Below the pieces are notes generated by a model, which saw nothing but the letters and a program-made list of their open reading frames with translations, made no database searches and was not told where the DNA came from. The position numbers and the translations under genes were made by a program. This document shows, one piece after another, positions 12,027 through 62,651 of a stretch of 64,000 bases of DNA. Position 1 is the first letter of the stretch; the number at the start of each line of letters is the position of its first letter. Origin of the DNA: Chrysomallon squamiferum (taxonomy: Eukaryota > Animalia > Mollusca); NCBI GenBank assembly GCA_012295275.1, contig CM022671.1, positions 35,030,001 through 35,094,000 of the forward strand, in the 5' to 3' direction.

Positions 12027-12136
<110 letters not shown>

Positions 12137-18224: not shown

Positions 18225-18292
<68 letters not shown>

Positions 18293-19852: not shown

Positions 19853-20910
19853 GCAGAAACCCGATGCACACATAAAATACAAGAGTAAAAAAAAAACACT
19901 GTTTAGCTGTGTATTTTAACAATGTTTTGTGTCTGTGGCCGTGTTTCTGATAGACATCACGTTTACCTCGGTCCAGAATTAGTTGTCCCGTTTAGCCTGT
20001 GTAAAGGTAATGGGAGAAATATTCACCCCTGTTTTGTGCTAACATTTTCTTATCTATAAACTGTTTGTTTGTTTGTTTTTTTGTTGTTGTTGTTGTTTGT
20101 TTTGTTTTCTGTATTTTTTATTTTATTTTATTTATTTTATTTATTTATTTGCTGTTCTTTATTGTTTTATTAGAAAATGTTTTAAACAAAAAGAAAGTTT
20201 TCTTTTTATTTATTTATTTTTATTCAAATTTTTTTTGAATTATTATTAATGTGCTGTACTCAGAGTTATTTAAAGTGTTTGTGTTTGTTTTGAAAATGAC
20301 TTTTGGGGTGAGTTTGCATTTTTATCATTTTCCTTATGACGGATGATAAGTTTTTCATAAAGAATTGAAACTTTTTTTCTTTTTTTTTAATAAATATGTT
20401 TAGGTGCATATTACATTGTAATAAAATAAAAGTAGGATTATTATGACTTTGACACAAATGATTAATGACACTGGTTAGATAGTTTGATTTTTACTCTTTA
20501 AATGTAACAATAGTGTATTGGTAATTTCCATGTTTTCTATAATCTAGCTGATTAATATCTGTTACTACAACTAGACGGTGATAACTAGACAAATTAGGAA
20601 TCTTTTTGACTGATTCTCTTGTCATGTTTGTTTTTGTGTTTTTGTTTTGTTTGTTTTTTTCACAAAAATGCTAGATTGTATTTGGAATATTTTAATGCAT
20701 TTGTTATTTTTTGCTTTCAATAAATTGATTGTAGAAATAAATTTAAAGAGCAAGTGGAATAATTCATTTTAAAAAAAAAATTATGAATGTTGTTGATTGG
20801 TAATATTTTAGTTTTTTTATTTGTTTTATCTGTTTGCTTGATGTAATTTATTGAGAAAAGTTTCAAAGAGGATTTAATTAATATCATGTATACCTGTTTG
20901 GAATTTGGTT

Positions 20911-31031: not shown

Positions 31032-32727
31032 TTGTTTGTCAAAAGGTACGGAAAAACAAAAAAAACAAAACACGGTCTATTCAGCTAGAATGATTACCGG
31101 TCACTATGTTAGGCACCGTAACATAGAAAATGCGCAGTCTGTTTCTTATTCTAACAAAAACTGTAGAATAAACAAATCCCAGCTTTGGGCGATGGTGAAA
31201 AAACATCAGTTTCAGATAAAAATGTAAAAAAAAAAAAAAAAAAAAAAAAATATTAATAATAATAATAATAATATTAATAAAAACAAATAAATAAAAGTTT
31301 TCAGTAAAATATATAATAACTGGGAAATGTACCTATGTTTAGCTCAATGATCATCATAATGATGAACAATCTTAACTAACTGTATTCAGTATTGTTTAAA
31401 AATAACACAATTGATAAATGCAACCAGAGCGATAACTGCAAATTTAGTGTTTACATCTTAACATCTTAAGAAGAAGAATGATTCTCACGTTTAATATAAG
31501 TTTAACTGCCTAACATAGTTGTTTGGATCATCTTTTTGGATCATTGTTTACAACAACAAATGTGCTAATCCATGTTCTCAGATAATGGCAACCCAATGAG
31601 CATACAGCCACATTTATACATTACTTCAGAAATCGGAGAATGATGTAGGGGAGATAAATCTTAAAATTTAATTTGGGTGGCAGTGATCGAATAGAGCAGT
31701 ATTCGAAAGTTATTATTTTCGAATGGTCACCTTATTAAGCAGCTGATTTTTATTTTAATAAAATTATTATATTGGTATGGGAAAACAACAACAAATAAAA
31801 CAAATAATAAAACAAACACAAACAAACCCAGTAATCTTTAAAATAAATAAAATTTAAAAAAATAATTATTATTATAATAAGAAGGACAACAGATTTAAGT
31901 CCAACCAAATTACGACTCTTTTCTTTCCGATAATCGTAGTTTGGAAACACAAATAATATATTTATTGATGGACACTTTCAAAACAGATTTTTTTTTTTTT
32001 TTTAATGAAGTAAAGAAATAAAAAGTTTTAGTTCTGATAAATATCTTTCAATATCTTTAGATAAATATTTAACTGTTTTTGCTTATCTCCGCATGAATGA
32101 AATACAGTTATTATTCCCGAATATATTGTAAAAACGATTCTGTTGATTACTGTTGTTGTTATTGTTGTTGTTTTATTTTCTCACAGTTTTGGAAACGCGA
32201 TGGTAATCTTAGTAGTTTTAATACATATATATATATATATAAACTGTTAAAATTCTTTTTTTTATTAAATACCTTCTCAGTCTTTTCTTTTTACATTACT
32301 ACTACTATTGTTTTTCTATTTTATATTCTATTCTTTCTTTTTTTTTCTTTTTTTAAATATGTCTCGCTATCTCTAAGCCCTTAATATATATTCCTTTTTC
32401 ACTGTGTATCGAATCAACAACTTATATATATATATACATACACACACACACACATACACACATATACATACACACACATGTAAACACATACATATGTTCC
32501 ATTATTTTTATTACCATAACTACTATTACTGTTTATTTATTTATTTATTTTTATCGACATAATTTTTATTTTTATGTCCACCAACCACTGTTGCCTAATA
32601 CGACGCGTGTGTCGGACACTTCACCTCCAAATCGAGTGCACAAATACCATTCGTGGCGATTTCCTGGCTAATACCAACACCAGGTCATCTTACTCTGTCA
32701 CGGCTGACCGGGCTGGTCATCTGGCGT

Positions 32728-32744
32728 TGACCTTACACTGACCT
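32728..32744 (-). promoter_or_regulatory. Perfect DR5 nuclear-receptor element (RARE-type) TGACCT-tacac-TGACCT
   Basis: Two exact AGGTCA half-sites spaced by 5 nt, inside a CpG-containing island with further half-sites (AGGTCA 32682, TGACCG 32705, TGGTCA 32714). Confidence 0.6.
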
Positions 32745-41761: not shown

Positions 41762-42365
41762 CCCACAGAATTGCCTTGTTTGGAAAGGGATGGCTAAAAA
41801 TTTAGGATCAAATTATAATGGCATAAATAATTTTTGTTATGTTTTTTTTTTTTTTTTTTTTTTTTTTTTCGACACTGGAGAAAATTGGTACTGTACTGAG
41901 TTACTGGTGGTATTTATCAGTTAAATTTGTCATCGATAAGCCAGTTTTGGTAGCCATTTTTCCCCCTTCAGATCCATCACAGTGCCGCTTGTAACTTCCA
42001 GTTTAAATTTTAACGTACTATTCTATACCAAGCCATCTTCGCAGGCTAAACCACAACTCTGTGCAGTATCCTACCAAGGTACCAGAGGAAAGATACTAAT
42101 GCTATGCCACGTCGACTTTCGAAGATGGTGTCAGATGTATCCAGATGTGATGTGCGCACCGGAAAAAAGGAAAACACAAACACAGAAGAGCTGTCAGCAA
42201 CCAATGACGTGATGTCAGCTTCGTGACGTGTGAAGACGAATAATGATGGAATTCAATCTCTGTTTGTTAGCGGAGAATCCACACCATGACCACTCCGCCA
42301 CCGGTATATCAACAAATAACTGATTAATCAATCTGATACTTCCACACTGATAACATCTACGACAT

Positions 42366-42400
<35 letters not shown>

Positions 42401-42530
42401 TTATAATAATGATAATAATAATAATTTTGAACATACGAAATATAATGAGACTTTATTTCATAATGAAAACCGTATTACTAAATTGACCATTTATTTGATA
42501 TTAATAATGATAATAATAAAATAAACGAAA

Positions 42531-42570
<40 letters not shown>

Positions 42571-43259
42571 GCATCAAAGTAACAATACATTTTACTTGTT
42601 TTTTTTCAAGCATTAGAAGTATGCCAAATATATTTAGACTATTTTTTTAACATCACAAATGCACAACTTTAATTTAAAAAGCAAAGGAAAGTTTCATGCA
42701 TTTAACAAAATTCGATAAACATATCTTAAACTAAAAAGTAAATAAACAATACAGATCGTAAAGTTATAAAGTTATAAAACAAGAGAAAAAATGTATTTAT
42801 ATTTGCTAATCTCTCTCTCTCTCATAATGAGTTTGGTTTATATATAAAGAATAACACAGCACATACATATTAAAGAATGTTCAATAAAAATGCATCATGG
42901 CACCCTTCATATATTTAGTTTGAATTTAAATACACAGAGTTCGCAAATTACCATCATTTCCCAAAGTTGAAAAAATAACCCAGATATTAATAATAATAAT
43001 AATAATAACAACAATAATGTCTATAATTCTAAACCGGTTTCAAAACTGTCTTAAGAAATTATGTGTTTTTTTTGTTTTGTTTTGGGTTTTTTTCACAAAA
43101 AAACTTTATATTTTAATTAATATTAAAGGGACATGGTTTGTCATTATGATGAAATAATCAACATCATATGTGAATTAAAAAAGTACTAAAATAAATACAC
43201 TGATGAGAAATCTTAGCAATAATTTTGCAGTGTCATCAAAATTATCTTAAAGCGATATG

Positions 43260-43298
<39 letters not shown>

Positions 43299-43444
43299 AA
43301 GAATGAATATCATTAAAGAAAGATATTATATAAATATTATGATACTACGATAATCATACAAATACCCTGACACTTGTTAGAACGGCTACAATCTAGTGAA
43401 CTGAACGACAGTATCAAATATTATAAAATATTGATGATAACACG

Positions 43445-44995
43445 TTAAACTTTGAGACTAGCCTCCACTTGAAGTTCTATCAGATCCACTAATCGCAATC
43501 TACCTTTACATTCACCTCGGTAGATGCGATTTATTTCTGTATTGCATGCTTTAAATGGTATGTCTATCCTCTCCACAAGCACCTTGGAAATGAGGTAATC
43601 CAAAGCACACATTTTCCTGTTTGTGTGTTCGAGCTGTCCACCTTGTTTTTCTTTCATCTCGTCATCATCTTCCGCATTATCCTCTTTTTGTTCTCCCTCC
43701 TCCTTGTCAGAATCCCACACGCTGGTCTTGCTGATGAGATACGGGTTCGATCTACGAAGCAAAGAACTTAATGTCTCGCTCGAAGCTGACGGAGGCAAGA
43801 TTTCGAATTTTGGCACCAGGTTGATTTCTGTCCGGTTCGCTTTGTTTAGCCTGTCTTGCTGATTTTTGTTGGTGTCATCGTCGACAAGCCAGTTTTGGCA
43901 GCCGTTTTTATCTGCTTGATCACAGTGCCGTTTGCCAGCAGATGGAGCGCTGTCGTTGTCGTCGTATTCCAAAACGTCTGACGTGAACTGTCGCTTCAGA
44001 TATTGCTTGTAACACAAACCCGCGGCTGGAGACCAGAGACCGTTCTCAGTTTGTTTGGGATAAGTTGATTCGTCTGTGGCATCAGTGGCATACGTAACTG
44101 ACAAGGACTGTTCTTCACTGGGTAAGGAAGCTAGATGGTTCCTCTGACTAGAATACCGTACATGTTCTTCCCGAGCTTCATCCTCAACCTTAGCTGCACT
44201 GTCCGCTGTGTAGGAATCTGCAGCCTGAGAGACAGAATCTGTGCTACCTACTGGAGAAGAAACCCGTTTTGAGCCAGATCCGCGAAATTTCGAAGAACTC
44301 GATTCGTAATACTTTCCTGTATCCATGCAAACAAAGGTTAATTTCTCTACATCACGATTATTTCCATGTCTCAAGCTTTTATTAATGTTTCGTTCAATGA
44401 ACGAAGTTTCATAATCTTGTCTGAAAGGTCCCCGGGGGGACGTTGAATTGTGATAATATAGAGATCGTCTGTTCGGCGATTCGCATTCATAAACAACATC
44501 AGAATATTCCCTTTCCAAAACAGGCACAAGTGGCTGTCGTATGTCGTAAGTGATACTGTTAGTGGAGGGAAAGGTGGACAACGGAACATCCTTACTGAAA
44601 CTGTTTTGAGAAACGCCTGTCATTGGAGGCGAATCTCGAACGGGAGATCGTGTTGTAGCGTTCCGTATATCTGGCACTGAGTAACGTTTATAAAGTGAAG
44701 TTGGTACGGGAGATTTCTTCAAATAGCCGCTCCAGTCCCGTTTGGTCGTTAAAATATTTTGCTCGTCTGCCGCATCTGAACCTTGTTTGACTTTATCTAC
44801 GTCGACGGCGGACAACTCATCGCTGGACGGGTCTGCTTCATCTTGATTTTCACTCTCAGCCAAAGTGCACGCGCACGACTTCACCATGCACAGTGGACTG
44901 TCGTTGCTCGGGTGTGGCTTTTTCGGACGAGTGTTCACCTTCATACTGAGATCAAGTGGTTCTTCTGAGAACCATTGTTCTTTATAAGATTCCAT
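43445..44995 (-). CDS. Uncharacterised 516-aa, largely disordered protein with PLDLS (CtBP-binding), LxxLL and two CoRNR-like motifs; putative nuclear-receptor corepressor
   Basis: A 1551-nt uninterrupted ORF with coding-like GC in an AT-rich background. A pyrimidine-rich CAG acceptor lies upstream (exon starts 45079). Motifs are PLDLS at aa 13-17, LSSLL at 43757-43771, LDYLISKVL at 43577-43603 and LVDLIELQV at 43466-43492. The coding call is solid; the function is inferred. Confidence 0.8.
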   Translation of the reverse strand: MESYKEQWFSEEPLDLSMKVNTRPKKPHPSNDSPLCMVKSCACTLAESENQDEADPSSDELSAVDVDKVKQGSDAADEQNILTTKRDWSGYLKKSPVPTSLYKRYSVPDIRNATTRSPVRDSPPMTGVSQNSFSKDVPLSTFPSTNSITYDIRQPLVPVLEREYSDVVYECESPNRRSLYYHNSTSPRGPFRQDYETSFIERNINKSLRHGNNRDVEKLTFVCMDTGKYYESSSSKFRGSGSKRVSSPVGSTDSVSQAADSYTADSAAKVEDEAREEHVRYSSQRNHLASLPSEEQSLSVTYATDATDESTYPKQTENGLWSPAAGLCYKQYLKRQFTSDVLEYDDNDSAPSAGKRHCDQADKNGCQNWLVDDDTNKNQQDRLNKANRTEINLVPKFEILPPSASSETLSSLLRRSNPYLISKTSVWDSDKEEGEQKEDNAEDDDEMKEKQGGQLEHTNRKMCALDYLISKVLVERIDIPFKACNTEINRIYRGECKGRLRLVDLIELQVEASLKV

Positions 44996-45198
44996 TGAAC
45001 AATTGCACTGAACCCGGCACGTGGTCGTTCTGCTGCGGCGTCTCGTCTCTTCGCGTGTGAATAGATTATCTGTTCGTATCTGTAAACAGAGAGAAAGTCA
45101 AATTATTCTTTACATTTGCTCCAAACAATTTGTAATGAAACTAAAATATTAATTACAAATTCAAGTATGCGTAAAACAGATGATTATTGATAGTTTAA

Positions 45199-45231
<33 letters not shown>

Positions 45232-47044
45232 ACCTTTTCTCCAACGATGCATACACATAATTTGTGGAAAAATTAAAAAATTAGTTACTGGCGGGCGTGA
45301 GCCCGGATTGTGGAAAAACCAGCAAATAAAATGATTCTCACGCGTTTTTACATGCTCTACATTTTATTTAGCAATACGACAGATAGAATATGCATCACTG
45401 CGTATTGCTTCAATAAATAAATAAATAAATAAGTTATGTACAATTTTCAAAATATTTACGTAAAGACCAATGATAAATAATACAGTTTAGAATCTGCAAG
45501 TGAAAATGATTTTTTTACAAACAGTGTATTTACACATTACTTAATACTTAGGCTTATCTAATTTGTAACCTTTGATGGCCAGAAATAATGATGATGGAGA
45601 TGACGATGTTGATGATGATGATTATATATATAATCCGAGAAATACAGAAAAATAATAGAAACAAAAAGCAAAGAAAATATGAAACGAATAAAAAAATAAA
45701 AATAAAAATAAAACAACATCGCGAAATTTCGCACGTTCTCTCGTCTATAAAAAAATATTAGTACAGATTTTTTTTCACTCCCTGGATTTAGAATAAGCGT
45801 TGAAATGTTTATCTTTACACATTCTGTCTACATTATTTATGCTGTAAATGAAACGGTCTTGTTATGTTATAAAAAAACAGGTCTAGGATATTGCAGCCTC
45901 TGACACCTAGTTACAGCGTAACCCTCAATATTAGACACTCTAAAGTTGAAGACATTACAACGGAACATTAATTTATTCCAATTCTTATTTACTTATTTAT
46001 TTATTAAAAATACTTCAAACCAACTAAAGCTCAAACTGAGAATTACTGTTTTAAATAACAAAAAATCAGTCTTTAAGATAATATGACTTGCCTATTTTTT
46101 GACGTCTGATAAATATGTTATGAAATCTTTTCCCATCTTTTAGCCTTACTACAAACTTAATACATCATCAAAGATATAAATTTTGACTACATGTTTAAAA
46201 TGTCAAATGTAATCACATACTTTGCTTGGCATGCTCTTTGTTCAGCAAATTAAAAAAAAAAAAATTATGATATCTTTATACATCTATTCATGTTACATTA
46301 TTGTAATTAATCTTAAAACATACGGATCGTGTCTAGTACTTTCATGTTACTACTCGTATATAAATATATGCTTTATGACAGAAGAAAAAAAAATAAAATA
46401 TTGGCCTTTATTTCATACCTTCATCTGCAAAAAATAAAATAAAAGATAAAAGAAACCATATCACAACACCTGCTGGCATAGCTACCAATATTATACGGCA
46501 TTTAAATATTTTGTTTAATTAATTTAAATAAAATAAATAAATAAATAAATAAACAAATAATTTAAAATAAAATACAAAAAAAATAATGAAATTAATAATA
46601 ACAACAACAACAACAAAACAATAATAATAATAATAACAACATATTAAAACAAATAAAATAAAAATAAAACGAAACAAAACAACTAAAGAGAGACCGTGAT
46701 GCTTGTCGTGTTCTCAGGAAACGTTATCAAACCTTTTTGCATGTACTGGCATTAAAACGAAGGCGGGAAAAGCAAATGCAGACGCTAGCTGTCAGCTTGC
46801 TCGAGGGTACTAACCTATGAGATTGGAATGGCTAAAAATGTTTATCTCGAGTATCGTGTACGGTGTATATTTCTGATCGTGATGGCATTATCCCAGTATT
46901 AATGAAAATTACCTCTGTAGAAAAAGTATCCTGTCTGGCCTTTTTAAAGGGCAAAATATAATATGGTGAACAGAAATAAACTATTATTATTATTGCTGAC
47001 GATGATCACGGTAATGATGATATTGATTATTATTATTAGTAGTA

Positions 47045-47093
<49 letters not shown>

Positions 47094-47464
47094 GTACAGT
47101 TATTGAAATTATGAAACATTAATACAAAAATACAATTTAATGCAACATTTTCGAAAATATATAGTTAAAACGTAATTAACATTTTAATTTTGCATACTGT
47201 TTTAAAATCTGCAAAAAATCGCTATTATTTAGTTATTTATTTATTTATTAAAATGTGACGGATAAGAACACTGAAATGATCTGATAGTTATGGCTTTCAT
47301 CAACACACATACTCACGCACACACCCACATTCCATACTCACGCGCACACCCACATTCCACATTCATCATTACACACAAAAACAATTTTAGTTTTATCAGC
47401 GCGCCAGATTCGATATAATACGAATCAACTATTTACCCCGCGATACACACAGACAACCACGCAC

Positions 47465-47608
47465 AGGGTCGACCTTTTGACCCCTGGAACGTGGAAGCGC
47501 ACAACCGGAGTTTACCCAACAGGTGAACACCGATTCGCAATAAAAGTACAGGTGACCCCGTGGGTCAACGATTTAACGACGTTTGCAGCTAAGGTCATAG
47601 GCGGGTCA
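47465..47608. promoter_or_regulatory. Nuclear-receptor element cluster: DR2 (47470-47483), ER3 (47553-47567), DR5 AGGTCA-taggc-GGGTCA (47592-47608)
   Basis: Six RGGTCA/RGGTCG half-sites fall within ~145 bp of a GC-elevated island 2.4 kb upstream of the 516-aa coding exon. Confidence 0.65.
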
Positions 47609-47774
47609 AGCGAATAGCAAAAGCCATCAAACTGGGTTTATAAATAATTCCACAGTTACACACACAAACACACACACACACACACACGCATAAAGATACA
47701 CACACAAACTTTATTCTGAATATTTTATTTCCTTTACGTTCACGTTGTTTTTTTTTTTTTTTTTTTGTTATTTG

Positions 47775-47814
<40 letters not shown>

Positions 47815-47955
47815 TTTATGAAGCTGGTCAACTAATAAAGACGTAATATTCATCGATTTATCAATCGTTTAATCAATAAAACTTAGTCTAGGAAATCGAC
47901 ACTATCCAAACTATTTAACAGCTCTAGTATGATGCTGTGATTTGAATAATGAATG

Positions 47956-47998
<43 letters not shown>

Positions 47999-48505
47999 TT
48001 CTTTTGTAAATAACTGACTGACGTAATTTATTCAAACATAACAATGTCCTACTTAAAATCTATTATTACATATTAGCCAATAGAACAACGTGTTACCAAC
48101 GGTATTATGTCATAAGTATGACACGTGTCAGATGTCAGCTGGTTCAATAGCAATGTACTTTAGCTGTGTTCCAAAATCGGGACACCGATGTCGGAAAGTA
48201 CAACCCCAACAGAAATGATGGCTAAATTTAGAAAATATGTAACGTGTTTACGAACAGGCAGTCACGCCTCTCAAAATAAGAGAACGTTAAAATTTTATTA
48301 TTACTAAATTTATTTATTTATTTTATAATTATTATTATTATTACTTCTTTTTCTTTTTGTCAGTCATTCGCAGACATCAGCAATGTCGTAATAATGTACT
48401 CATATAAAAAATGAAATTATATTTAAGGACTTTTATATCGAACAGCGCAGAATTAAAACTTTTATTTAACTCTCTTTGTGCATTTATATGTTCGAAACAT
48501 GCAGT

Positions 48506-48554
<49 letters not shown>

Positions 48555-50772
48555 CTCATGACAATATTGTAAGTAAATAATCGAGTTCCCTGCTGTTATA
48601 TTTATTGTATTAAGCACATATGTAAAATATTTAACAGTTCTGTCTTAAATGGATGACTGTCTATATTTAGTTACAAATAGAATGTATTAATGACCAGTCA
48701 TTCGGAACAATACGCATGAGTAAAGACGAACTTTTTTCTTTAATAATTTAAAAAAAAAAAAAAAATTGTTGAATGCTTGCACTTAGATGACCGGAGTTTT
48801 AAGGAACGGATCCAGAATTTCACAAATGGGGTGAATCCGCACCCCTCATTTTATATATTTTAAACACGCACGAATAACTACGCATCGGTTAACGATCGAT
48901 AGTTTGGGGATCGCTTCTAAACAGCGGCTCAAAGAGAAGAGAGATGTTTAAGGTTTGCCTTTAGCTTATAAATATTCTGTTATCACAAAATAATGGTAGT
49001 TTTAAATAACATTAGGAAGGAAAGAATAAAAAACGAAGAGAATTATTATTTTTAATTTGTTTTTCTTTATTTTTGACAAAATTAATAGGAAAGAGAAAAT
49101 AAATAAACATGGCCTGTAACACCAATAAATATGTAAAGTTATTAATCAGATTTTATTACCGTTATTCGAAAAGATTAATATAATAGCACAGTAGTAAAGA
49201 TAAAAGTGGTAACCAGGCAACATCTGTTAGCAAAATTATAATAGTAATTAACTTCTACAGTTTTTCATATTATTACAGCAGAATCTTTCATATAAGGTAA
49301 TTCATAAAAATTTTAAAATAAATATATAAAAAGAATATAAATTACTTCTACCGTGTACCAAGTATAATTAATATTAGTGATACAAGTAAACATAAAATCA
49401 TACGAAATGTCAACATTTTCATTTGCACATGTATATTTAATAGAGCGTGTAAAATGTATAAATATTTAAGTTTATCAGGGCATTTCTATTCATGAAAATG
49501 TGGAAGCTGATGAAGATTAATCAAAAATGTATCCACACACAAAAACGTACTCACGAGAGAGAGAGAGAGAGACTGAGTAATTCAAATAATTTTGCTCATC
49601 GATTCGTTTTCACTTTAATTTCTTTCTGCAGATTATATCCATTACAATAATAACGCATCTGCCTGTTTCAGAATCTTCGATTCACTGAGAAACTCTATCA
49701 TTTTCCCCTCTTTTCCCTTTTTACGTGTGTGAACAAACGTAATCCACCATCCCTTGATTGTGTTGGTTATTACAGTTAGTCCACGAAAGATATCGGTGAG
49801 ACGAAAAAAGCTGCTCAGTCAACAGATTGTACAACGAAATATTCGTATAACTATCAATACACAACAAATACGAAATGATGAACAACAACGATATGAAAAA
49901 AAAAAACACCCTTACCTTGCTAAATGTAAGTCGAACGAAAGAAAACAACAGTTACCAAACGATTCCCTCTCTCTCTTCTCTGGTCGCAAGGCTAACGACC
50001 TACTATAGCGAAAAACCTGTTAACAAGAGTTCAACGCCCTCGATCTTCACCGACATACTTCCGGCTTGTACCGGCTGACAGAATATATCTGTACAACGAA
50101 GGAAAACGCGCAGTTTTCCAAAACATGTCTGTTTTAACACAATGACGTTCATCGGTCGAATTATTATTATAATTATGCGATGATACTGAGGTTGGATAAG
50201 TCAGGAATGTGATTTTTAAACCTGAAGTTACTTTAGTCAATGTTTTTATGTAACAGCAATTACAATCAAAATGAAATATATTAAATATTTTAAATGAATT
50301 GAATCACTGTTTAAAATAAAATAAGAAATCATTAATCTTAAGTGTATGTGTGTTGCAGACCGAAAGACTAAATTATAAAAATCATTAATCTATTAAATTA
50401 ATTACTATATGGTGTGCTATATTTGCGTATTCAATTTTCAAATATTTACACCGCCTCTATCTGCTGGCTGTGTTAAAATGCTTAGTAATTTTTTTTAATA
50501 CTTTCTTGTTTTGTTTTTAACTATTTATTATAACCAATAAGCAAATAAATAAATAAAAGAAATACATTTTAAAGGAAGATATAAAAAGAAACCCATACTA
50601 TCTCAGTATGGGGGAGTGAATAATAATAATAAAAGTATAATTCAACGAAATACACAAAATAAACGAATAATTTAAGAAATATTAAACGTGCTCGGTAAAT
50701 AATTTACAAAATACAAACTTCTCCTGTAAAACGTAATTTTGAAAGTGCCAAAATAAAAATCATTCCGTGCGA

Positions 50773-50806
<34 letters not shown>

Positions 50807-51285
50807 AATGAAAAAAAAAAAAAAAAAAAAAAAAAAAAGAAAAATGAAATAAAATCCCCAAAGTAAAAGAAATGTACGTAAATTTAAAAAATAACAACTT
50901 CAAAAATAAGTAATCTGTCAGATGGAAAGACTTATATAAAACATTATTAAAACAGTGTATATATAACAACAACGGCATATAATTAACAAAACAACTACAA
51001 AAAAAAAAAAAAAAAAAAAAAAGAAAAAAAAGAGGAAAAATAGTAATAACTATCTGACTAACTAAATAAATAAATAAATCTGTTAAAACAAAATGATAAA
51101 CAAAAAAATAAATAAATAAATAAATTATATTAAATAAAATTAAATTAAATACCACAAAACAACTTAATAACGTTAACGAAAACTACTTTAAAAAGATGTA
51201 AACATTAAACTGATCAAATAAATAAAACATAACGAACCAACGAACCAAAACATTTCTGTTTATTTACTGCGCAACTTATTTCTTA

Positions 51286-51318
<33 letters not shown>

Positions 51319-51826
51319 TCTTTTTATATTTTATGTAACTGACATGTGACAACGTTTCAACAATATAAATTATAAAAAAAAAAAAAAAAAGACTAATGGA
51401 AAACATGACACTTATGTGACGTATATATGGACAAAAAGAAAAAAAGGAAAAAGAAAAGAAAGCCAGCCTACGCAAAAACACAGCGAAACCTCCATGACTT
51501 TAGTCGGTCACAGCGTTGTTACAAAGTTCACGGGAAATGGTTAATTGGATGCAAAACTATTCGTGCCGATTCCAGTGTGTGTATCTATGCGTGGTTTATA
51601 CGAATGACAGAATAAGAAGAAAGAATGAAAGAGTGTGAGAAGGAGAGAGAAAAAAAAAAAAAAAAAACAGATGAAGAAAGCGAGAATTAGTGACCAAAAA
51701 AATTTTATATAACTGATGAGAAAGAGAATAAAAAAGAGAAACAAATGAAAATAATATAAAATACGAGTGTTAATGATGAGAGGGAAAAGACAAAAACGCA
51801 TTAAAGAAAGACAAAGAAAAACGAAA

Positions 51827-51888
<62 letters not shown>

Positions 51889-52110
51889 ACGAGAAACGGA
51901 GAGAAAACGTCATGGATGTGTAAAAGAACGAATAATAGAAAAAGAAAGTAAGTGAAACCAGTAGATATATATTTTTTAATATTAACCGGTATAATTATTA
52001 TTTTAATGAACGTTTGGTGTTAATCCTAATTATTTATAACTAAGAATAAGCTAAAATCTGGTGTGAGGAAGTCACGTTCTCGCCTTTCAAACATGTTGGA
52101 TGATTCTTCT

Positions 52111-52315
52111 GATTATCAGCAAGGTATCTTTTTCTGTAGATTTTCTCATTAGCTGGGAACAACATCCACTCGCTTTTGACGCGGAGCATTCGTTAGAATG
52201 GGAATAACTCAGCAGATTATCAGCAAGGTATCTTTACAAAGGATTTTTACATAGACTAGCGAGTATATAAAACAGCTTTTATACAACACATGCAGAGCAT
52301 TTCCTGGATTGGGAA
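52111..52315. repeat. Two diverged ~100-bp tandem units beginning GATTATCAGCAAGGTATCTTT; probable old interspersed-repeat fragments
   Basis: An identical 21-mer occurs at 52111 and 52215, and the tails are similar (GAGCATT...TGGGAA). Confidence 0.6.
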
Positions 52316-52359
52316 AAAAACGAATGTATTCTTTGACAACTAATTGCGCATGTCCACGA

Positions 52360-52426
<67 letters not shown>

Positions 52427-53081
52427 ATATATTAATTTATAATAAAATCATATCTTAGGATCTTTCTACATCTTAATTTTTATGCGTTGCCATAATTATC
52501 TTTAATCCAAGCGTGGGCACAAAACTTCTTAAATGCTATTAAATATTTATATTTTACATCTGATCTCATTAATTCTGTTATTCCAAAGTTTCTTACTTTG
52601 CGATATTCGTGTTATATCAACTAAAAATAGACGATCGATTGCTGCCAGTGTTATCCACAAAGGAAACTATTTAATAGGAACAATAATGAGATAAATATTC
52701 AACAAATAGTTTTATGATCGTCCTTCACCTTCGTTTTATCTACCGCTATGTGTCCAAAACCTAATATTTGAAGGTAAATTATATCTATGTAATATGAATA
52801 TGGTTGTAAGACTGAGGTACACGTATAGCTTTACAGAAAGTTTAGAAAACCGAGAATGCTAAAAAGACTGACATAATCTGCGATTCCAGGTTTTCATGAA
52901 AGGAACATTGTGTCGCTACTGTTAATGGCGAGAGCATTTCTTTGAATGAGTGTGTGTGTGTGTGTGTGTGAAAATATAATAATCATCATTTATAATTACA
53001 TATAATTGATTTTCAATTTGGAACCACTACTGATCAAGAATTTTTCTTTGCCACTGTAGTTATAAAAAAATATATATAAAA

Positions 53082-53112
<31 letters not shown>

Positions 53113-53261
53113 TGTTACTGTTACATTTGAATAATTAGACTTTTTACTCCGATTTTACTATTTATATTAAACAAATAAATACAAACACAAAAACACAATA
53201 ATAAATGAAAATAAATAAAATATATATTATATTAATTTTAATCACACACACACACACACAC

Positions 53262-53310
<49 letters not shown>

Positions 53311-54599
53311 GTAATTCTATCCTACTAAGATATAAAAAAAAATAATTATGAATAAGAAAATGTTTTTAAATATCCTAAATCCTCAAATGGCATTTAACAT
53401 ATTTAATTTTTTTTTTTTTTTTTTTTTTTTTTTTCGGGATTGGTTATCTAATGTAATCTTTCCAGAAAATATGACCGTTTCGAAGTACAGTACAAAATAA
53501 CACCGTATTAGGTCGATAAGAGATTTTATTCACTGGAATTTCAGTATATCCCTACCAGTTGCTTAGAAGCAATGACTGATTACGAATCACCAGAATAAGC
53601 ACTTAAAGCAGAAATAAAAATGTCACCAACACTAGCCCGCCGAAAGTCTAGGATTAATATCGGCAGAAATAATAATGGCGGAACATGTATAATTAAAATA
53701 GATAAGAAGGATTTAGATTATTTGTTTTTCCCTTCATTCTGACCGATGTAGGTGGTAAAAAAATATATAAAAAAATAATAATGATAATAAATTAAAGAAG
53801 AACGAGGGGAAAAAAAAAAAAAAAAGGAAGTAAAAACAAAAAGTGAAGAATAAAAATAAAAGGTTAACGTTAATAATTATAATATACGACCTATCTTGGT
53901 GAAATCATTGGTTCAGGACAGTAAAGGCGTGCTTTGCCAGATTATAACTACTACTACTACTATTAAAGAAAAAGAACATGGACACAAGCTGAAGTCCGAG
54001 CTATAAACAAACAAGGATGTGTACACTTTACCTCACAGTAAAAATATTTAGTAACAGCTGGTTTCTCCTCTGTTGTGATTGCCTTATTTGAATACCATTC
54101 TAATATAATTGATAACCAAAAGCAATATATATGACAGCGTCAACAATAGTTATAGTAATTTCGTTCAAAATTAATAAATTAATGCATGTGTGTGAGAGTG
54201 CGCGAGATAAACAGATGTAGAAAAGATATAATAGAATATTTATATATATGTACACACACACACACACACATACAGCCAGCAGAAAATAAGAGCCAACAGG
54301 CGGAGTATTTGACTAATTCCTTTCCTCTGAAAGGCATTACAGAAAAGATTTGTAATCAACAATGTTTTTATTTACGATGATGTTGTTTGATTTAAAAACA
54401 GTTTAGGACTGGAAATAATTATCATGTTTATTTATTTATTTATTTATTTATTTTAAATAGCTGAACAATTCTGATATTCAGATAAACAGAAAAGAAAAAA
54501 AAAAAAAAAAAAAAAAAAAAAACCCAGAAGACTCCCTTTAAAATAATAATAAAATTAATAATAATTTAAAGATAAATTAATAAAAACAAATTTTAAAAA

Positions 54600-55130
54600 T
54601 GTAATCAATCATTTTGAAATTAAATGAAATCGCTAATTTTAAATATTTTGTAACTAAAATAAATGATAAAATTAGATAAATCGTCAGTTTCGAATATTCA
54701 CAAATATAAAATAAATAAATAAATCACTATTTCTGATAAATAATTTAAAATAATGAAATCACTATGCAGTTTTAAGACAACTAATTTGAAATAAATAAAT
54801 CACTAATTCTAAAATAAGTAACGAATTAAATTAAAACATTACTAATCTGGAATAAATGTAAAAGTACCTAATTTGAAATATATAAATCACTAATTTAAAA
54901 AAAAGTAACTAATTAAATAATTATTTCTAAAATAAGTAACGAATTAAATCAAAACATTACTAACCTGGAATAAATTTAAAGGTTCCTAATTTGAAATATA
55001 TTTTTAAATCAGTCATTTGACATGAATTTAAAAATCAATAATTCGAAAAAGATCACCATTTGAAATAAATAATTTAAAATTAATTGGTCACTAATTTCAA
55101 AGAAAGAAATCATTAATTTGAAATATATTT
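54600..55130. repeat. Degenerate AT-rich tandem repeat (AAATCACTAATTTGAAATAAAT-like) with an internal ~115-bp-offset duplication
   Basis: TTCTAAAATAAGTAACGAATTAAAT...ACATTACTAA...TGGAATAAAT...CCTAATTTGAAATATA occurs at ~54807 and ~54925. Confidence 0.7.
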
Positions 55131-56651
55131 TTTTTTTTTTTTTTTTTTAAATCACTGTTTCGGAATATGTTGCTTCCATACTGTATTGCGATAAATGCGA
55201 TACGTAACATGATTCTCCATTCTTGTTTGATTTCGACATTTAGCACAAAGCTTAAAAATAGAATATATAAATATAAGAAAAAAATACGGGCAGTTTCTGA
55301 TAACCAAATTAGTTTGGCATACTTTCGAAAGGTTTAAGCGTATCTACGTTAAAAAATCATGCTTTTTATAAATTGTTCTTAAAAAATACATAAATAAGGA
55401 AATAAGGAAACAAAAAATAATAAATAAGTAAGAATTTAAAAAAAAAAAAAAAAAAACAGAAGAAAAAAGATGAAAGTGATGGAGATTCACGAAGAAAATC
55501 GTACACATGTCATAAACCAGTTGTTTTGAACCATATATATATTTTAAAATATTAATTTAGGTTCTATTCCTAGTCTTAATTTATCATCTGGATAAACTTC
55601 TGATCAGTTTTAATAAACATGGCTTGCTGAATCGGCAACTTATTAACTTTCATATAAATCGATATGTAATTAAATGCAAAAAAAAAAAACAGACCTTTAC
55701 TTTGCCGAATACATCGCTGTTTCCAAATTAGAGTCTATGTATGTACAGTCGTGTTTGTTAATTTAAATTGTCCGCGTATAACAATGGGAGTTTAAAAAAT
55801 ACAAATCAAACCTAGTACAAAGGCTTAGCTTTAGTTTCTCATGTATCGTGGCTTATTTAAAATGCACCAAAACGTCTAGAACATAGGGGTTATTTTCAAT
55901 TCGTGCGACCTCTGAACAACAAATCTCATAAAATCGGTGAACTGTAGAAAGAGGTCAAGCGACCGAACAAAAAACACTTACCTATGGCTCTCCTCAGCTA
56001 TGGCGCAATGTTCGCTTGAAAAATAGCCGATTAGAAAGAACAAAGGGGAAAACACACACAGACACAGCCGCAGAGAAAACACCTATGACGTCGTATAACG
56101 TAACTGCAAATGCGCCGGGATATAACTTCGAAAGCACGCTAAAAATAGAGAAAATGTCCTTAACGTTAGAAACAAAATTTAAAAAAAAAAAAAAAAAAAA
56201 ATGAAAAAAAAAATAGACTGAAAACTTACATATAAAGGTTTCTGTCTGGGAAAGCCGTGAACCGTCTGAAAAACACTACTTTCTGATAACAAAGAGAAAC
56301 AAAAATCTACGCAGGTCAACGACCGAATTATCGTCTGCTAAAGAAGTAAACGATTCGACGAGAATATTGATTGGTGTTACATAAAAACGAGGTATGACCC
56401 AGCAGTGATAACCCTGCCACATCCAGCAAGTTATTCAGAGTGAGGGGTTCTTTGGCGATCAACAAAAGATGTCTTGAATAAAGGGTAGGGGAAATTTGTA
56501 TGCTAAATACGCGCAGGCTGAAATAATATTTGAATCAAATAATAATCTGCCTTTAAGAAAGATGCTTATCTGATGCACAATGACCGTTTATCATGTACCG
56601 TTGGTGATATGAAGATATTGTCTGCTCTATATATTACATTCGAAGTACTGG

Positions 56652-56697
<46 letters not shown>

Positions 56698-57053
56698 TAT
56701 TTCTTCTTCTTCTTTTTTTTCTTTTTTCTTTTTTTAAAGAATTCAGTTTAAAATAAACACTTTTCTGAACTAACGATATCATCGGAACCAATTTCTCCAT
56801 TCTTCAAGTCATGACGTCACGAATCCTTATGTAAAATGGCGGCGTTCAAATAATGGATCACCAAAAGCAAAAAAAAAAAAATAATTCATAAATATATATA
56901 TAAAAAAATAATAATTAAAAAATTAATTTGAACTGTAGCAGGGACAATTTAATAAAAGAAGATAACACTCACACGCATGCACTAAAATACATCCCTCCAA
57001 ATCTTTTACCACTTTTCTTTTACAAAAGGAAAGTAAAGAAAGAAAACGTATAT

Positions 57054-57097
<44 letters not shown>

Positions 57098-57532
57098 GCT
57101 ATTAATAGCAATGCAAAAAAATAATGGCTGCGTGCGATTTTCACAAAAAGCGATGATGTTATCGATGTTTTATTAATTAAATATACCAGTATTTTTTATT
57201 ATTTATCCAATACAATATCACTAAATATGCATGACTGGCCATGCATTCAGCTCCGAATTCCTGTACGTATGGTAAAGCAGTGTGTATAAAATGTCAAAAC
57301 ATTACGTAAAATGTCACGTAACTGACGAACTTCTGACGAGTAATTCTGCGCTTTCTACATAATGTTTTGTAACTTTACCCACTTATCTGTAATAAATCTA
57401 CCGACTGATTGAATGCCCGGCAGACAATCTTAGATTATCTCCTGATATGACTTTTTAGTAACAAATTTATCTCCATTTTATAATCATAATAATAATCATC
57501 ATCATCATAAATATGAACAACAACTATCATCA

Positions 57533-57564
<32 letters not shown>

Positions 57565-58578
57565 TTCACTTTAGTACATAAATATATCAGGCACTCAGAT
57601 TTTATTTTATTATAGAAGTCGGTGTTCGTCTTCCTTGTTTATATAAGTTTGAAAGATTACTTTCTATAGGCCTATACTGAGGTATAAAGAAACTTTCGCT
57701 AGGGGTCGCTAACTGATGGGGAAAAACAGCGAGTTTCTTCTCTTTTACGTGTAAACAGAAAACATTTATATTCACAAAATCATTTTCGTATCTGCAGTCA
57801 GATACAGTAAATCAACAAAGTAACCAATAACCAGTCAGTCAATAACTCAATGAACCAATAAAAGAGCAGTCGATTGTAAAGATGAAACATAGTTTAGTAG
57901 ATAAGTTTTAATATATGAGTTTATTCATAGGCATGACGTAACATTAAACCAAACATTATAGTAAGGCGTGACCCTGGTGGCAAGCTACAAAATCAAAACA
58001 AACAACGACGTACTTTCTGAATTGCTGTGGGGATCATTGTTAAAAGTTCAGTGACATAGTAAGAATGACTGGAAGAATGTCTAACAACAACTTTTGTTGT
58101 TAACGATTACGTGTGTAACAGTCACGTGATTCGGCCCGATTACCGGTGATTCACACTAACACTACGAAAGTAGATACCACAGTTTTTGATAACAAATTAC
58201 CGAGTTGAAAAGTAGCCTAAACGGACACCGAAGGGAACTGATCCTGTGGCCGCAATTTTCTTAGACGAACATTGTAGATGCTAAACTAACTGCCCGACCA
58301 AATTAAAAATAACAACAACAACAACAACAAAAAAATCAAACAAATCTGAACAGTTAAAAAAGAATATGAATAAGAAGAAAGTCTACAGAAAAGGGAAAAT
58401 AAAATAAAATAAAATAAAATAAAATAAAATAAAATAAATAATAATTGAAAAGAAAAGTATTTTAATTATTATTTTATATTTATATATTTATTTTATCAAA
58501 TATAACATTTAAAATATCATGCAGGAATTCTGATTATTAATTCAATCTACTTCCAATATCTTATTTATTGACAATACA

Positions 58579-58621
<43 letters not shown>

Positions 58622-60818
58622 ATAATAATAATAATAATAATAATAAACAGCTGTTTCCAAATAAGAGATTTCTGCAGATTACAGATTTGGATACACTGCA
58701 CATGAATTATTTAAGATGCATATAGTGGCTATCCATGCAATAAAAAATAATTACGTACGAAGACTGACTGTACAGTACATACATACGTATAATGTTTCGA
58801 TGTTAAACCAATGTCAAATGCTAAAGTTGTTTAAAAAGGGGTTTAAAAGTACGTATCTTCGGCACTTTCTTAAACATCTCCATGATTTACAAGCTAGGTA
58901 TTAGAATCACGTCTCTCTGTACGGGAAGGTCGACGTACGTTCGTACAACTGAGAAATGTGATCAGACTTACACAAAATTTATACTGGGGAGTGGGGTGAA
59001 AAAACCCACTAGATTTATAGTGCACTGTATATCTCCAGGCCATACCTTTGTTTAAAAAGAGATATAATTAATTTCTTTATGTCGTAAAACACTTAAGCTG
59101 TAACTAATAGTTGATTTGTTTCTTTACGTTATTATTATTTTTAAATTCTGTGCTTCTGACATTTGAATATACGTGTGTATGTGAGCGCATGTTAATTGAC
59201 TTGATCTTTTCTCGGTATTGCTTCCCGTTTAAAATATTAGCTTACATTAACATCCACAGTATTTAAATCCTGTAAAAGTAATTTATATCTTTCCAGATGT
59301 TATCGATTTGAGATGAGAACTGTCATAGAAACATGCATTTTTTTGTGTGTGTGTGTCTCCTTTACAAAATACGGTATTGACTTTTTTATCAGATGAATGG
59401 ATGCCGCTAACCGACTCGACCTGTTTTAAGAACCATATGCTGTGACCCGTATTATTTATAAAGTGCTGACGTAAGCGGCTATGCAAGAATAATCTATCTG
59501 AAGCTAAATAATAAAATGCACGCAAACGGCATAGCTGAGCTGAAAATGCTGACTGGACAATTTTCGAGTCTAGTATCGTCTGCTGCTGCTAGACATCAAT
59601 CAAACATCGTTGCCTTGACTACCAACGGAGAATTACACGACAACGTATATTCGTAACAGCACGAAGAGAGAGAGAGCATTGCTTGCATTCTAGCTTCGTC
59701 AGAGTGATACGTTAAACTGAGCACGTGGACATACATGATATCAACACATCTGATAACCAGATTTTATAATTTTCCGATTAACTGCGATCGATTTCTACTA
59801 CTTATCTGGCTAAATATCGATTAACCTTTACGACTGGCTTGCGATTTTGTTAGGGACACATATGCACGCACAAATAACAGACACACAGATAAAAGATAAT
59901 AAATAAATAAATAATAAAAATTAATATAGAAATTCCCAAACTAAACCAGTATCAAGTTTATATTAGTCTACTGTTGGTTTTTTCGTTGGTATTTGGGTGT
60001 ATTTTTTTTGTTTTTTTTTTTTTTGAGAAACCCCTTGTCATCGCAACATAATTGTTTCCTTGCCTCATTTTTTACTCATTAAAATGATATAATGCTATTT
60101 ACAAACTTCTGCGAATGTTGTAATTTACCACAATTATACACGATAGTTTGTGCCATCTGCTTCATTTCTGTTTGTCACCGCCAATGGAATCTTCCGTGAA
60201 ACATTTGCATATTTACCACAACTTTAATCCTTGTAATTTATAAAACAAACTGTTTGCCTCACGATGTTGGAAGTCAGTGCTCTTTTTAGATACAACGTCA
60301 AAGATAATCAAATCTTAAGTAGAGGTTGGGGTTATGGTGTTGGATACTCAGTATTACGAATGTCATGAAAACATATTTTTCTACATGGATAATTAGCACA
60401 CCTAACGCCATATTCATTTTAAAGGACAGAAATAGATAATTGGCTACGTTGGCGTGGAAACAGAAGACAGCAGTTGGTTTCAACTGCAGGGAATTCTTCA
60501 GAAAACAGCTGAGTTCATGTACAGGACATATATATGTGTATATATCTATCTATATATATATATATATCACAGAGCGTGGTTCCCCACCCACAAGGGTTAA
60601 ATCAGTTCCACCGTTGTTAATTTATTTAGCTTTATTTAAAAAAAAAAAAATTACATTATCCACGGTTATACGTTTTTAAGATTTGTTTTTAAAAGGCGAA
60701 ATCGATATTCACACATAGACACAATCACACACACACACACACACAAACATACGAACCTTTAATTACAAAAACCTACACATTATTTTATATATTCATACTA
60801 CCCGAACGCATATGCGCT

Positions 60819-60870
<52 letters not shown>

Positions 60871-61338
60871 TACGTATTCACAAAACATGCCAACATACGA
60901 AACTTACATTTATAATCAAGTTCTCTTTAAATATTTCATTAATGCTGCTAGAAGATCATAAATGGTTTGCTTTCAGAATAGTTACACAATTTTTATTTTA
61001 TTGGTTTATTCAACGAAACATTAAAGTGAACATCTTCTATGTACTTTTGTGTTTTTGTCTGTAAGTATACACTCCAACACATATACATACATAAAAATAA
61101 ACACATATCCACTAACGTAAAGGCTGTTTGAAAAAATTGTAACAGTTATATTATATATATATATATATATACACACACATATATATACACATACTCATAT
61201 TTTTAATTTGTACTTGTTCTCCAACATATTAATACTAAACAAAAATAACAAGATTATTACAAAACATTTTGTTTCTTTATATGCATGAAAGTATGCATGT
61301 ATGAATGTATGTATGTATGCTTTAGCTTATATATGAAC

Positions 61339-61412
<74 letters not shown>

Positions 61413-61731
61413 CAAGTAAGAAATATATTAAGTTACCTAAACCTAATACATCTTATTTTCTTACCTTTTCTTCAACTGAATCATTGATTAAAAATCCAAT
61501 TACTCTCTTTCTGCCAGTAGTCTGTTTGTCCAGATTAATGTGCAGCCTGTCAGAGCGTCTACAGTCGAGAATTAGCAGTATATTCTCTCAACATCAGTAA
61601 AGCAGTAACGAAGATTTGCTGGTGCAGTGAGCTATGGAAATGTCAAAGTGAAAGTCTGGCCGACACACCAAGGTCAACGCTCTCTCAGAAGTAATAATAC
61701 CACTCGTCACGGTTGTTGACATGTCCATGTA

Positions 61732-61757
61732 TGACGTCAGAGGTCACTTGGTGGTCA
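61732..61757 (+). promoter_or_regulatory. CRE (TGACGTCA) abutting a DR5-like AGGTCA-cttgg-TGGTCA
   Basis: Read directly. An extended half-site CAAGGTCA lies at 61669-61676, and the element is just upstream of a candidate minus-strand first exon (donor at 61465). Confidence 0.55.
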
Positions 61758-61872
61758 ACGGCAATTCCAGGCAGCCAACCGGTAAAGGTTTTTCGGGACT
61801 ATCCTGAAAACAGCAGAGAGTGGGTGGTTTGGATTAAACTTTATACGAACTCATTAACTGAGGCGTTTTGTG

Positions 61873-61910
<38 letters not shown>

Positions 61911-62651
61911 ATTAGTCCTTATCCACAAATTATTAATTTTTTGTCTGAATATAATACTGTCTATAGATTAAGTGATGATAAAAGATGGTAGCTGCATAAA
62001 TTAGCTATACGTCGTAGGTTCAGTAAATTGTAATATTATTTATAAATGTTTTAGTTATATATCCAGTATCTCTGAATAGAGTCCGGGAGGTTTAGGAAAT
62101 ACAACCCAAGGCTGTTTTTCCAGGATGCTAACTTCAGTCATAATGAAATAAAGATCGACTCTTTAGATAAGATAAATTAAACATGTAGCAAAACTAACAA
62201 AATATTTTCAAAGGAGCGAAACTGACTCTTTGTTAACCAAAATGCTATTTGTTTTTCTTTTTCTTTTTTTCTTTTTAATTATTCTGGACCTTTCACATTT
62301 CGACTTTCCAGTAGATCTTCAGCCAATATATACATGATAGTTATCTATAATTGTACAAAAGTCTTCAAATTATATTAGCTATCGTGACGTTATTTTTATT
62401 TATTTATTTACTGAACAGTTATAAACTGTTCGTGTGTGTGTGTGGGTGTGTGTGTGTGGGGGTGTGTGTGTGTATGTGTGCAGCAATTATTAATTTTCTA
62501 GACATAACTATATGTGAAAACTGATTGTTATATGTAGCAAATTAAGGACTGCTGCATTTAACCCACTCCAAACACATTTAATTAAACTTTATACCGCTCA
62601 GTGAACGGAGGGTCAAGTCATCTAAAACTGATCATTTAGACTACGAAGTGA

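What the first reader, a model, noticed from the sequence alone, without database searches (positions are those of the whole stretch)
43445..61760. Candidate invertebrate RIP140/NRIP1-like corepressor locus wired for nuclear-receptor negative feedback
Seen: one coding exon encodes a 516-aa disordered protein with no recognisable folded domain. It has an N-terminal PLDLS, an LSSLL (LxxLL), and two C-terminal LxxLIxxxL/V helices. Upstream lie ~17 kb without a credible CDS but with several candidate non-coding first exons and paired nuclear-receptor half-sites. Known: PxDLS recruits CtBP; LxxLL and CoRNR (Lxx[I/H]Ixxx[I/L]) boxes bind nuclear-receptor ligand-binding domains. Vertebrate NRIP1/RIP140 has a single coding exon, multiple 5' non-coding exons, PxDLS+LxxLL motifs and retinoid/NR inducibility, and is generally regarded as vertebrate-restricted. 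Inference: this is a remote homologue or convergent analogue, an NR-induced CtBP-recruiting repressor forming a feedback loop, with both agonist-type (LxxLL) and apo-type (CoRNR) docking motifs in one small protein.
Basis: partly seen in the sequence, partly recalled or inferred. Interest (0 to 1): 0.85.

Follow-up and report, generated by a model that had tools for sequence, protein, structure and literature searches.

The report
Mollusc corepressor candidate, not RIP140
This is an expressed, uncharacterised gene shared by snails, bivalves and cuttlefish whose protein likely links hormone-type nuclear receptors to the repressor CtBP and is likely switched on by those same receptors, a predicted feedback brake resembling vertebrate RIP140 without detectable kinship to it.

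Summary
The 516-aa ORF (43445-44995, minus strand) is a real gene. RNA contigs cover it, and one contig splices to a non-coding upstream exon. It belongs to an unannotated family in gastropods, bivalves and a cuttlefish. The LxxLL is not conserved: 6 of 50 members have one, the chance rate. Neither helix fits the strict CoRNR consensus (0 of 54), but one fits a broader published form and the other follows the NCoR ID1 spacing. The locus has two perfect DR5 elements and two half-site clusters (0 of 300 shuffles), although one cluster lies downstream, near the ARMC5-like neighbour. No similarity to NRIP1, LCoR or NCoR was found. Verdict: likely a convergent, receptor-induced CtBP-recruiting corepressor of apo-receptor type (about 0.45), not an NRIP1 homologue. 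Receptor binding and induction are untested.

The parts
43445..44995 (-). CDS of 516 aa in one coding exon; low-complexity, likely disordered middle
   Evidence: RNA contigs of 4 runs of one study cover it, one contig spans 43390-45081; 49% identity over the full length to a Gigantopelta aegis protein
44996..45079 (-). 84-nt leader of the coding exon, after a polypyrimidine tract and AG acceptor
   Evidence: sequence; RNA contigs of X1, X3 and X4 stop matching at 45081
44945..44959 (-). PLDLS, residues 13-17, predicted CtBP-binding motif
   Evidence: PxDL[STR] in 46 of 50 long family members against 3.9% in shuffles; motif meaning recalled
44867..44890 (-). CxxxxCxC motif, residues 36-43; possible metal-binding site (inferred)
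   Evidence: 39 of 50 long members against 0.3% in shuffles
43757..43771 (-). LSSLL, residues 409-413; chance match, not part of the family
   Evidence: absent in P0001 and P0002; any LxxLL in 6 of 50 members against 12.1% by chance
43448..43627 (-). Conserved C-terminal 60-aa module, three predicted helices without a confident compact fold
   Evidence: alignments A2 and A3; AlphaFold2 pLDDT 81.9, pTM 0.43, helices 8-19, 30-36, 46-59
43577..43603 (-). CoRNR-like box 1 (residues 465-473)
   Evidence: fits the broad form I/LxxI/LI/LxxxI/L/F in 28 of 52 members where the box was found; strict form 0 (definition)
43454..43504 (-). CoRNR-like box 2 with a short hydrophobic lead-in (residues 498-514), at the extreme C-terminus
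   Evidence: NCoR-ID1-like spacing [IL]xDx[IVM]xxx[IV]xxx[LF] in 48 of 54 (pattern set by me after seeing the data); within 6 residues of the C-terminus in 54 of 54
49916..49979 (-). Non-coding upstream exon (at least this part), donor after 49916
   Evidence: 62-letter loose end of one X3 contig matches here; in-frame stop inside it
55982..56100 (-). Candidate alternative first exon, donor after 55982; extent not known
   Evidence: donor consensus and raised GC only; not tested with RNA
61465..61760 (-). Candidate distal first exon, donor after 61465, with a short upstream ORF that stops before the donor
   Evidence: not tested with RNA
47466..47608 (.). Intronic receptor-element cluster: DR2 with 1 mismatch (47470), perfect ER3 (47553), perfect DR5 (47592)
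55938..55957 (.). Perfect everted repeat ER8 just inside the 55982 donor
61668..61757 (.). YCAAGGYCA monomer-type site (61668, the only one in the window), CRE palindrome (61732) and DR5 with 1 mismatch (61741) at the distal candidate exon
   Evidence: site names recalled
32682..32744 (.). Downstream cluster of 5 GGTCA cores with a perfect DR5 (32728); may serve this gene or the ARMC5-like neighbour

Best explanation
The gene encodes a mollusc-family adaptor that likely acts as a nuclear-receptor-induced corepressor: its N-terminal PLDLS is predicted to recruit CtBP, and its C-terminal CoRNR-like helices are predicted to dock on unliganded or repressive receptor ligand-binding domains. Shown: the gene, its expression, one spliced non-coding exon, the family, the conserved motifs and the non-random DR5-bearing clusters. 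Inferred: an RXR heterodimer (RAR/RXR is the first candidate, from DR5 and DR2) binds the intronic and promoter elements and drives transcription from alternative first exons. The protein would then tether CtBP to receptor-bound sites and damp the response, a negative feedback loop. It would work like RIP140 in logic and gene layout, but dock as NCoR does and not through LxxLL. My estimates for the steps: CtBP binding 0.85, direct receptor target 0.65, C-terminus binds a receptor 0.5.
For: Conservation is confined to the ends: identity to the abalone P0003, the Nucella P0004 and P0005 is 79-84% in residues 474-516, 33-42% in 1-43, and 2-28% in the bins from 44 to 430. PxDL[STR] is in 46 of 50 long members. 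Box 1 fits the broad CoRNR form in 28 of 52. Box 2 puts L, D, I, V, L at +1, +3, +5, +9, +13, where the NCoR ID1 peptide printed in 10.1101/2020.05.05.079277 has L, D, I, I, F, and a hydrophobic residue sits at -2 in 54 of 54, as in the ID1 strand that pairs with RAR and REV-ERB. The helices are predicted with no compact fold and their spacing varies from 30 to 40 residues, as expected of binding motifs. Independent of the protein, the DNA has 2 perfect RGGTCA DR5 (0 of 300 shuffles) and 2 clusters of five cores (0 of 300); only GGTCA among 60 letter permutations gives two DR5. Annelid RAR/RXR binds DR1, DR2, DR5 and NCoR ID1; gastropod RARs do not bind retinoic acid (PMC5821490 passages), which suits apo-type docking. 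RIP140 has one coding exon, several non-coding exons and retinoic-acid feedback (PMC2763268 passages).
Against: Strict CoRNR consensus: 0 of 54 for both boxes; box 2 also fails the broad form (0 of 54, V at +9); box 1 loses its +9 hydrophobic residue in mussels and P0061. Polar residues of box 2 (E, Q, E) and parts of the linker are as conserved as the hydrophobic face, which hints at another kind of partner. The boxes are 37 residues apart against about 200 in NCoR (10.1101/452482 passage). No corepressor peptide in the PDB scored at E<=10 with the profiles or single helices (low power). Perfect pairs of any geometry are not enriched window-wide (4 against 1.5; 20-23 of 300), 6 of 60 permuted 5-mers also form a cluster of five, and one of the two DR5 lies 10.7 kb downstream, 1.7 kb from the ARMC5-like gene. 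Conservation of the elements in other species was not tested.
Confidence: 0.45

Rival explanations
1. The protein is a CtBP-recruiting adaptor whose C-terminal module binds a transcription factor or cofactor that is not a nuclear receptor; it may be a receptor target gene but is an effector, not a feedback brake.
For: Strict CoRNR is never met; polar positions and the linker are conserved; amphipathic helices of this kind bind many partners (established knowledge).
Against: Two tandem CoRNR-like helices, one in ID1 spacing, occur in a gene with receptor-element clusters; no other known motif class was matched.
Confidence: 0.3
2. It binds CtBP or receptors but relieves repression, as a decoy competing with NCoR or sequestering CtBP, in the manner described for RAI2.
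For: No enzymatic or other repression domain is seen; RAI2 inactivates CtBP through short motifs (title and abstract start of PMC11187106).
Against: Only one PxDLS per protein, whereas the RAI2 title names multivalent motifs; joining a CtBP motif to a docking module is the usual layout of a tethering repressor.
Confidence: 0.1
3. The protein has nothing to do with nuclear receptors; the DNA elements are chance or belong to neighbours, and the C-terminal module is a small fold or self-association domain.
For: Broad half-site density is not raised; one DR5 cluster is nearer the ARMC5-like gene; the linker is partly conserved.
Against: The cluster statistics, an extended half-site found 7 times in 32.7-61.8 kb and never in 1-31 kb (post hoc), pTM 0.43 and a variable linker.
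Confidence: 0.11
4. It is a remote orthologue of vertebrate NRIP1/RIP140.
For: Similar gene layout and a CtBP motif in a disordered protein.
Against: RIP140 docks through multiple LxxLL motifs and has four repression domains (PMC3315023 passage); LxxLL is at chance level here; no named non-mollusc hit; no Pfam family reaches its cut-off in 45 members.
Confidence: 0.04

Closest known systems
NRIP1/RIP140 (vertebrates)
   Same: Largely disordered; CtBP recruitment (predicted here); one coding exon with several 5' exons; receptor elements in the locus and a feedback logic (shown for RIP140; inferred here).
   Different: No conserved LxxLL, no detectable sequence similarity, about half the length (RIP140 length recalled), CoRNR-like helices at the extreme C-terminus, an extra CxxxxCxC motif.
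NCoR1/SMRT receptor-interaction domains (CoRNR boxes ID1, ID2)
   Same: Two tandem amphipathic boxes; box 2 follows ID1 spacing with a hydrophobic lead-in; box 1 fits the broad CoRNR form.
   Different: Strict consensus not met; boxes 37 against about 200 residues apart and in the reverse order; no SANT domains or C-terminal SHARP motif; a CtBP motif in place of the HDAC3 core.
LCoR
   Same: Links receptors to CtBP.
   Different: LCoR uses an LxxLL on liganded receptors and has a helix-turn-helix domain (recalled); neither is found here.
RAI2
   Same: Disordered CtBP-binding protein with a retinoid link (listing).
   Different: Several ALDLS motifs and CtBP inactivation, against one PLDLS plus a conserved C-terminal module; no sequence similarity seen in any search.

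Membership tests
NRIP1/RIP140 | Multiple conserved LxxLL receptor boxes | tested here: not met
   One LxxLL, absent from the closest relatives; 6 of 50 members have any, chance 12.1%
NRIP1/RIP140 | Sequence homology to NRIP1 repression domains | tested here: inconclusive
   No Pfam family at cut-off in the window protein or 45 relatives and no named vertebrate hit; a direct profile comparison with NRIP1 could not be run
NRIP1/RIP140 | CtBP-binding PxDLS motif | tested here: met
   Motif in 46 of 50 long members; binding itself untested
NRIP1/RIP140 | One coding exon and several non-coding 5' exons | tested here: met
   Uninterrupted ORF; 1 of 3 candidate exons shown by RNA; isoform sets in Haliotis, Mytilus and Pomacea differ only at the N-terminus
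NRIP1/RIP140 | Induction by receptor ligands | not testable with these tools
   Only response-element statistics are available
NCoR/SMRT | At least two CoRNR boxes L/IxxI/HIxxxI/L | tested here: not met
   Strict form 0 of 54 for each box; broad form 28 of 52 for box 1 and 0 of 54 for box 2 (definitions)
NCoR/SMRT | Two SANT domains and a C-terminal SHARP motif | tested here: not met
   No Pfam domain; the protein ends with box 2; criteria from PMC4554918
LCoR/LCORL | LxxLL box plus helix-turn-helix domain (domain recalled) | tested here: not met
   LxxLL at chance level; no Pfam domain
Receptor-to-CtBP bridging corepressors (functional class) | Physical binding to a receptor ligand-binding domain and to CtBP, with repression | not testable with these tools
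   No receptor or CtBP sequence was available for a complex prediction

The most novel reading that the evidence does not exclude
Molluscs evolved their own RIP140-like feedback corepressor: a gene induced through DR5 elements by RXR heterodimers, whose product clamps the ligand-blind molluscan RAR/RXR through NCoR-type boxes and silences it through CtBP, making it a candidate node in retinoid and organotin (imposex) responses.
Probability: 0.25. Interest if true: 0.8.

Novelty: new variant of a known kind. Interest (0 to 1): 0.55.

Why it matters
Coregulators of molluscan nuclear receptors are barely described: none of my searches found a paper on this family. Gastropod RAR does not bind retinoic acid, while RXR responds to 9-cis-RA and organotins and is tied to imposex. 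A conserved, receptor-induced repressor with apo-type docking would give a testable way for this pathway to be damped, a possible exposure marker, and a case of convergence on the RIP140 design from different parts. Even if the receptor link fails, the 60-aa module and the CxxxxCxC motif define a family with no Pfam entry.

Tried and rejected
LxxLL as a functional box: rejected. Terminal exon of a larger protein: rejected; the spliced upstream exon has an in-frame stop and the shortest isoforms of relatives start close to PLDLS. The 84-nt leader is open in frame, so short N-terminal extensions like those of relatives remain possible. Pfam scans of the protein, of 19 C-terminal stretches and of 45 relatives: nothing at cut-off. 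PDB sequence searches: no hit better than E 1.4. Fold search: best Z 3.3, none at 5 or more, uninformative. Homodimer prediction of the C-terminal 60 aa: no answer, score 0.00, alignment not used. ESM Atlas: no usable hit for the C-terminus, two weak leads (0.80, 0.77) for an oyster member. Metagenome scans for orthologous loci: none with the profile (143 candidate stretches); one 1793-bp mussel-type contig with only 803 bp upstream, too short to test element conservation. No whole genome was held. Element clusters as copies of a repeat: no similarity between them in blastn. Rfam on 31-64 kb: 0. Gene-id literature search: 5 LOC ids absent from main texts, hits were unrelated numbers. Earlier scan findings: none. 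RNA contigs show no cover over 45146-49250, which is no evidence by itself.
Full report
Observation. The window holds a 516-aa ORF at 43445-44995 on the minus strand with no Pfam match. A splice acceptor lies 84 nt above the ATG. Five public runs of two studies hold the stretch, four on record as RNA. Contigs of those four RNA runs, all of one study, were laid on 42000-49250 only. One spans 43390-45081 without a gap, three runs stop matching at the acceptor, and one contig carries a 62-letter loose end that maps to 49918 onward, ending at an AG|GTAAG donor. So one non-coding upstream exon is shown, by a single contig. Two more donors of the same consensus lie at 55982 and 61465, with none on the opposite strand; these are candidates only. 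No credible coding frame lies in 45080-62000.

Family. A word-indexed search gave 5 relatives, an unfiltered HMMER search with the single protein 22, and two profile searches with the C-terminal 60 aa gave 49 and 51 (only about 8000 candidates scored each time). Every named hit is a mollusc: Gigantopelta (49% over the full length, so the window is likely from a related snail), Haliotis, Patella, Lottia, Nucella, Littorina, Pomacea, pulmonates, scallops, oysters, mussels, Pinctada and the cuttlefish Sepia pharaonis. The names are 'uncharacterized', 'hypothetical', 'unnamed' or low-complexity labels. The profile hits end at E 1.5e-10 and 1.9e-12 with nothing weaker listed. Many hits are unnamed, and some well-sequenced molluscs did not appear, so restriction to molluscs is not shown. 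Isoform sets of Haliotis, Mytilus and Pomacea share the whole shortest protein and differ only at the N-terminus, so alternative 5' exons on one main exon look like a family trait.

Motifs. Of 56 representatives including the window protein, 54 were parsed (P0033 and P0060 dropped by the pattern) and 50 of these are 300 aa or longer. PxDL[STR] is in 46 of 50 (3.9% in shuffles); CxxxxCxC in 39 of 50 (0.3%); any LxxLL in 6 of 50 (12.1%). The window's LSSLL is missing from its two closest relatives. The strict CoRNR consensus (PMC4554918 and 10.1101/452482, passages) is met by neither box in any member. The broad form I/LxxI/LI/LxxxI/L/F (10.1101/2020.05.05.079277, passages) is met by box 1 in 28 of 52 and by box 2 in 0 of 54, because +9 is V. 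Box 2 nonetheless follows the spacing of the NCoR ID1 peptide printed in that paper, with L, D, I, V, L at +1, +3, +5, +9, +13 in the window protein and a matching pattern in 48 of 54; I set that pattern after seeing the data. A hydrophobic residue at -2 (54 of 54) matches the ID1 strand that pairs with RAR and REV-ERB. AlphaFold2 gives three helices with good local confidence and no confident overall fold (pLDDT 81.9, pTM 0.43); the fold search was uninformative. Against the CoRNR reading, polar residues of box 2 are invariant or nearly so, box 1 loses +9 in mussels, and PDB sequence searches did not retrieve corepressor peptides.

DNA elements. In 45080-62000 strict RGGTCA half-sites number 12 against about 6 (3-8 of 300 shuffles), perfect pairs 3 against 0.25-0.29 (1-2 of 300), but broad RGKTCA sites are not enriched (24 against 21-23). 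Over the whole window there are 2 perfect DR5 (47592, 32728) and 2 clusters of five GGTCA cores in 150 bp, each reached by 0 of 300 local shuffles; perfect pairs of any geometry (4 against 1.5) are not significant. Both clusters combine a DR5 with an ER3-like pair and are not copies of a repeat. The 32.7 kb cluster is 10.7 kb below the stop codon and 1.7 kb above the first ATG exon of the ARMC5-like neighbour, so its owner is unknown. A post hoc look found the extended half-site GGTCA-A(G)CG 7 times, all in 32.7-61.8 kb (mean 0.54, 0 of 200 shuffles), which suggests one factor binding across the locus. Conservation in other species could not be tested.

Mechanism. The best reading is a receptor-induced adaptor that tethers CtBP to receptors in a repressive conformation (0.45). 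The protein evidence and the DNA evidence point to nuclear receptors independently, which is the main reason to prefer it. Annelid RAR/RXR binds DR1, DR2, DR5 and NCoR ID1, and two gastropod RARs do not bind retinoic acid (PMC5821490, passages); mollusc RXR binds 9-cis-RA and is tied to organotin imposex (PMC13262680, passages). An apo-type box suits such a receptor pair. All binding and induction steps are inferred. The main rival is a CtBP adaptor for a non-receptor partner (0.3).

Comparison. RIP140 has one coding exon, several non-coding exons and retinoic-acid feedback (PMC2763268, passages) and docks by multiple LxxLL motifs (PMC3315023, passages). This gene matches the layout and the CtBP motif but fails the LxxLL test and shows no homology, so it may work like RIP140 but is not filed as one. 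It also fails NCoR and LCoR membership. That PxDLS binds CtBP, and that NRIP1 is vertebrate-only, are recalled and not checked here. Searches for the family in print found nothing (listings only, main texts of an open-access library, no supplements).

Verdict. New variant of a known kind; interest 0.55.

Noticed in passing
window 25474-31076 (-): Multi-exon ARMC5-like gene: BTB hit E 8.6e-6 and a weak ARM_ARMC5 hit E 3.6e-5, below cut-off.
   Followed up: partly
window 2250-7330 (+) and about 11500-19900 (+): Exons that read like chaperonin subunit CCT6 and a phosphatidylinositol transfer protein (names recalled from translations, not searched).
   Followed up: no
window 35423-36880 (-): Frameshifted transposase-like remnant with a FLYWCH domain (E 4.7e-6), between the gene and the downstream DR5 cluster.
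   Followed up: partly
window 32728, 47563, 47604, 55953, 56314, 61672, 61753: Seven copies of an extended half-site GGTCA-A(G)CG, none in 1-31 kb; binding factor unknown (post hoc).
   Followed up: partly
window 42000-42358: RNA contigs of two runs cover this GC-richer patch about 1.1 kb below the stop codon; it may be a long 3' UTR or a separate transcript.
   Followed up: no
proteins P0024, P0030-P0032, P0036, P0038-P0045, P0047-P0049, P0052, P0056, P0057, P0061, P0132-P0134: These 23 of 50 long members, the named ones all bivalves, share extra motifs absent from the window protein: HPKRR/K-like and LPKKR-like basic motifs, and in 18 a helix resembling LKADMIREID.
   Followed up: partly
proteins P0038 and P0040; P0004 and P0020; P0059 and P0111: Two family members each in Pecten maximus, Nucella lapillus and Bradybaena similaris, so the gene has duplicated in several lineages.
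   Followed up: no
L001 300-780: Mussel-type locus with about seven imperfect tandem units, each an acceptor-like site plus a short segment, directly above the coding exon; possibly a source of 5' isoform variety.
   Followed up: no
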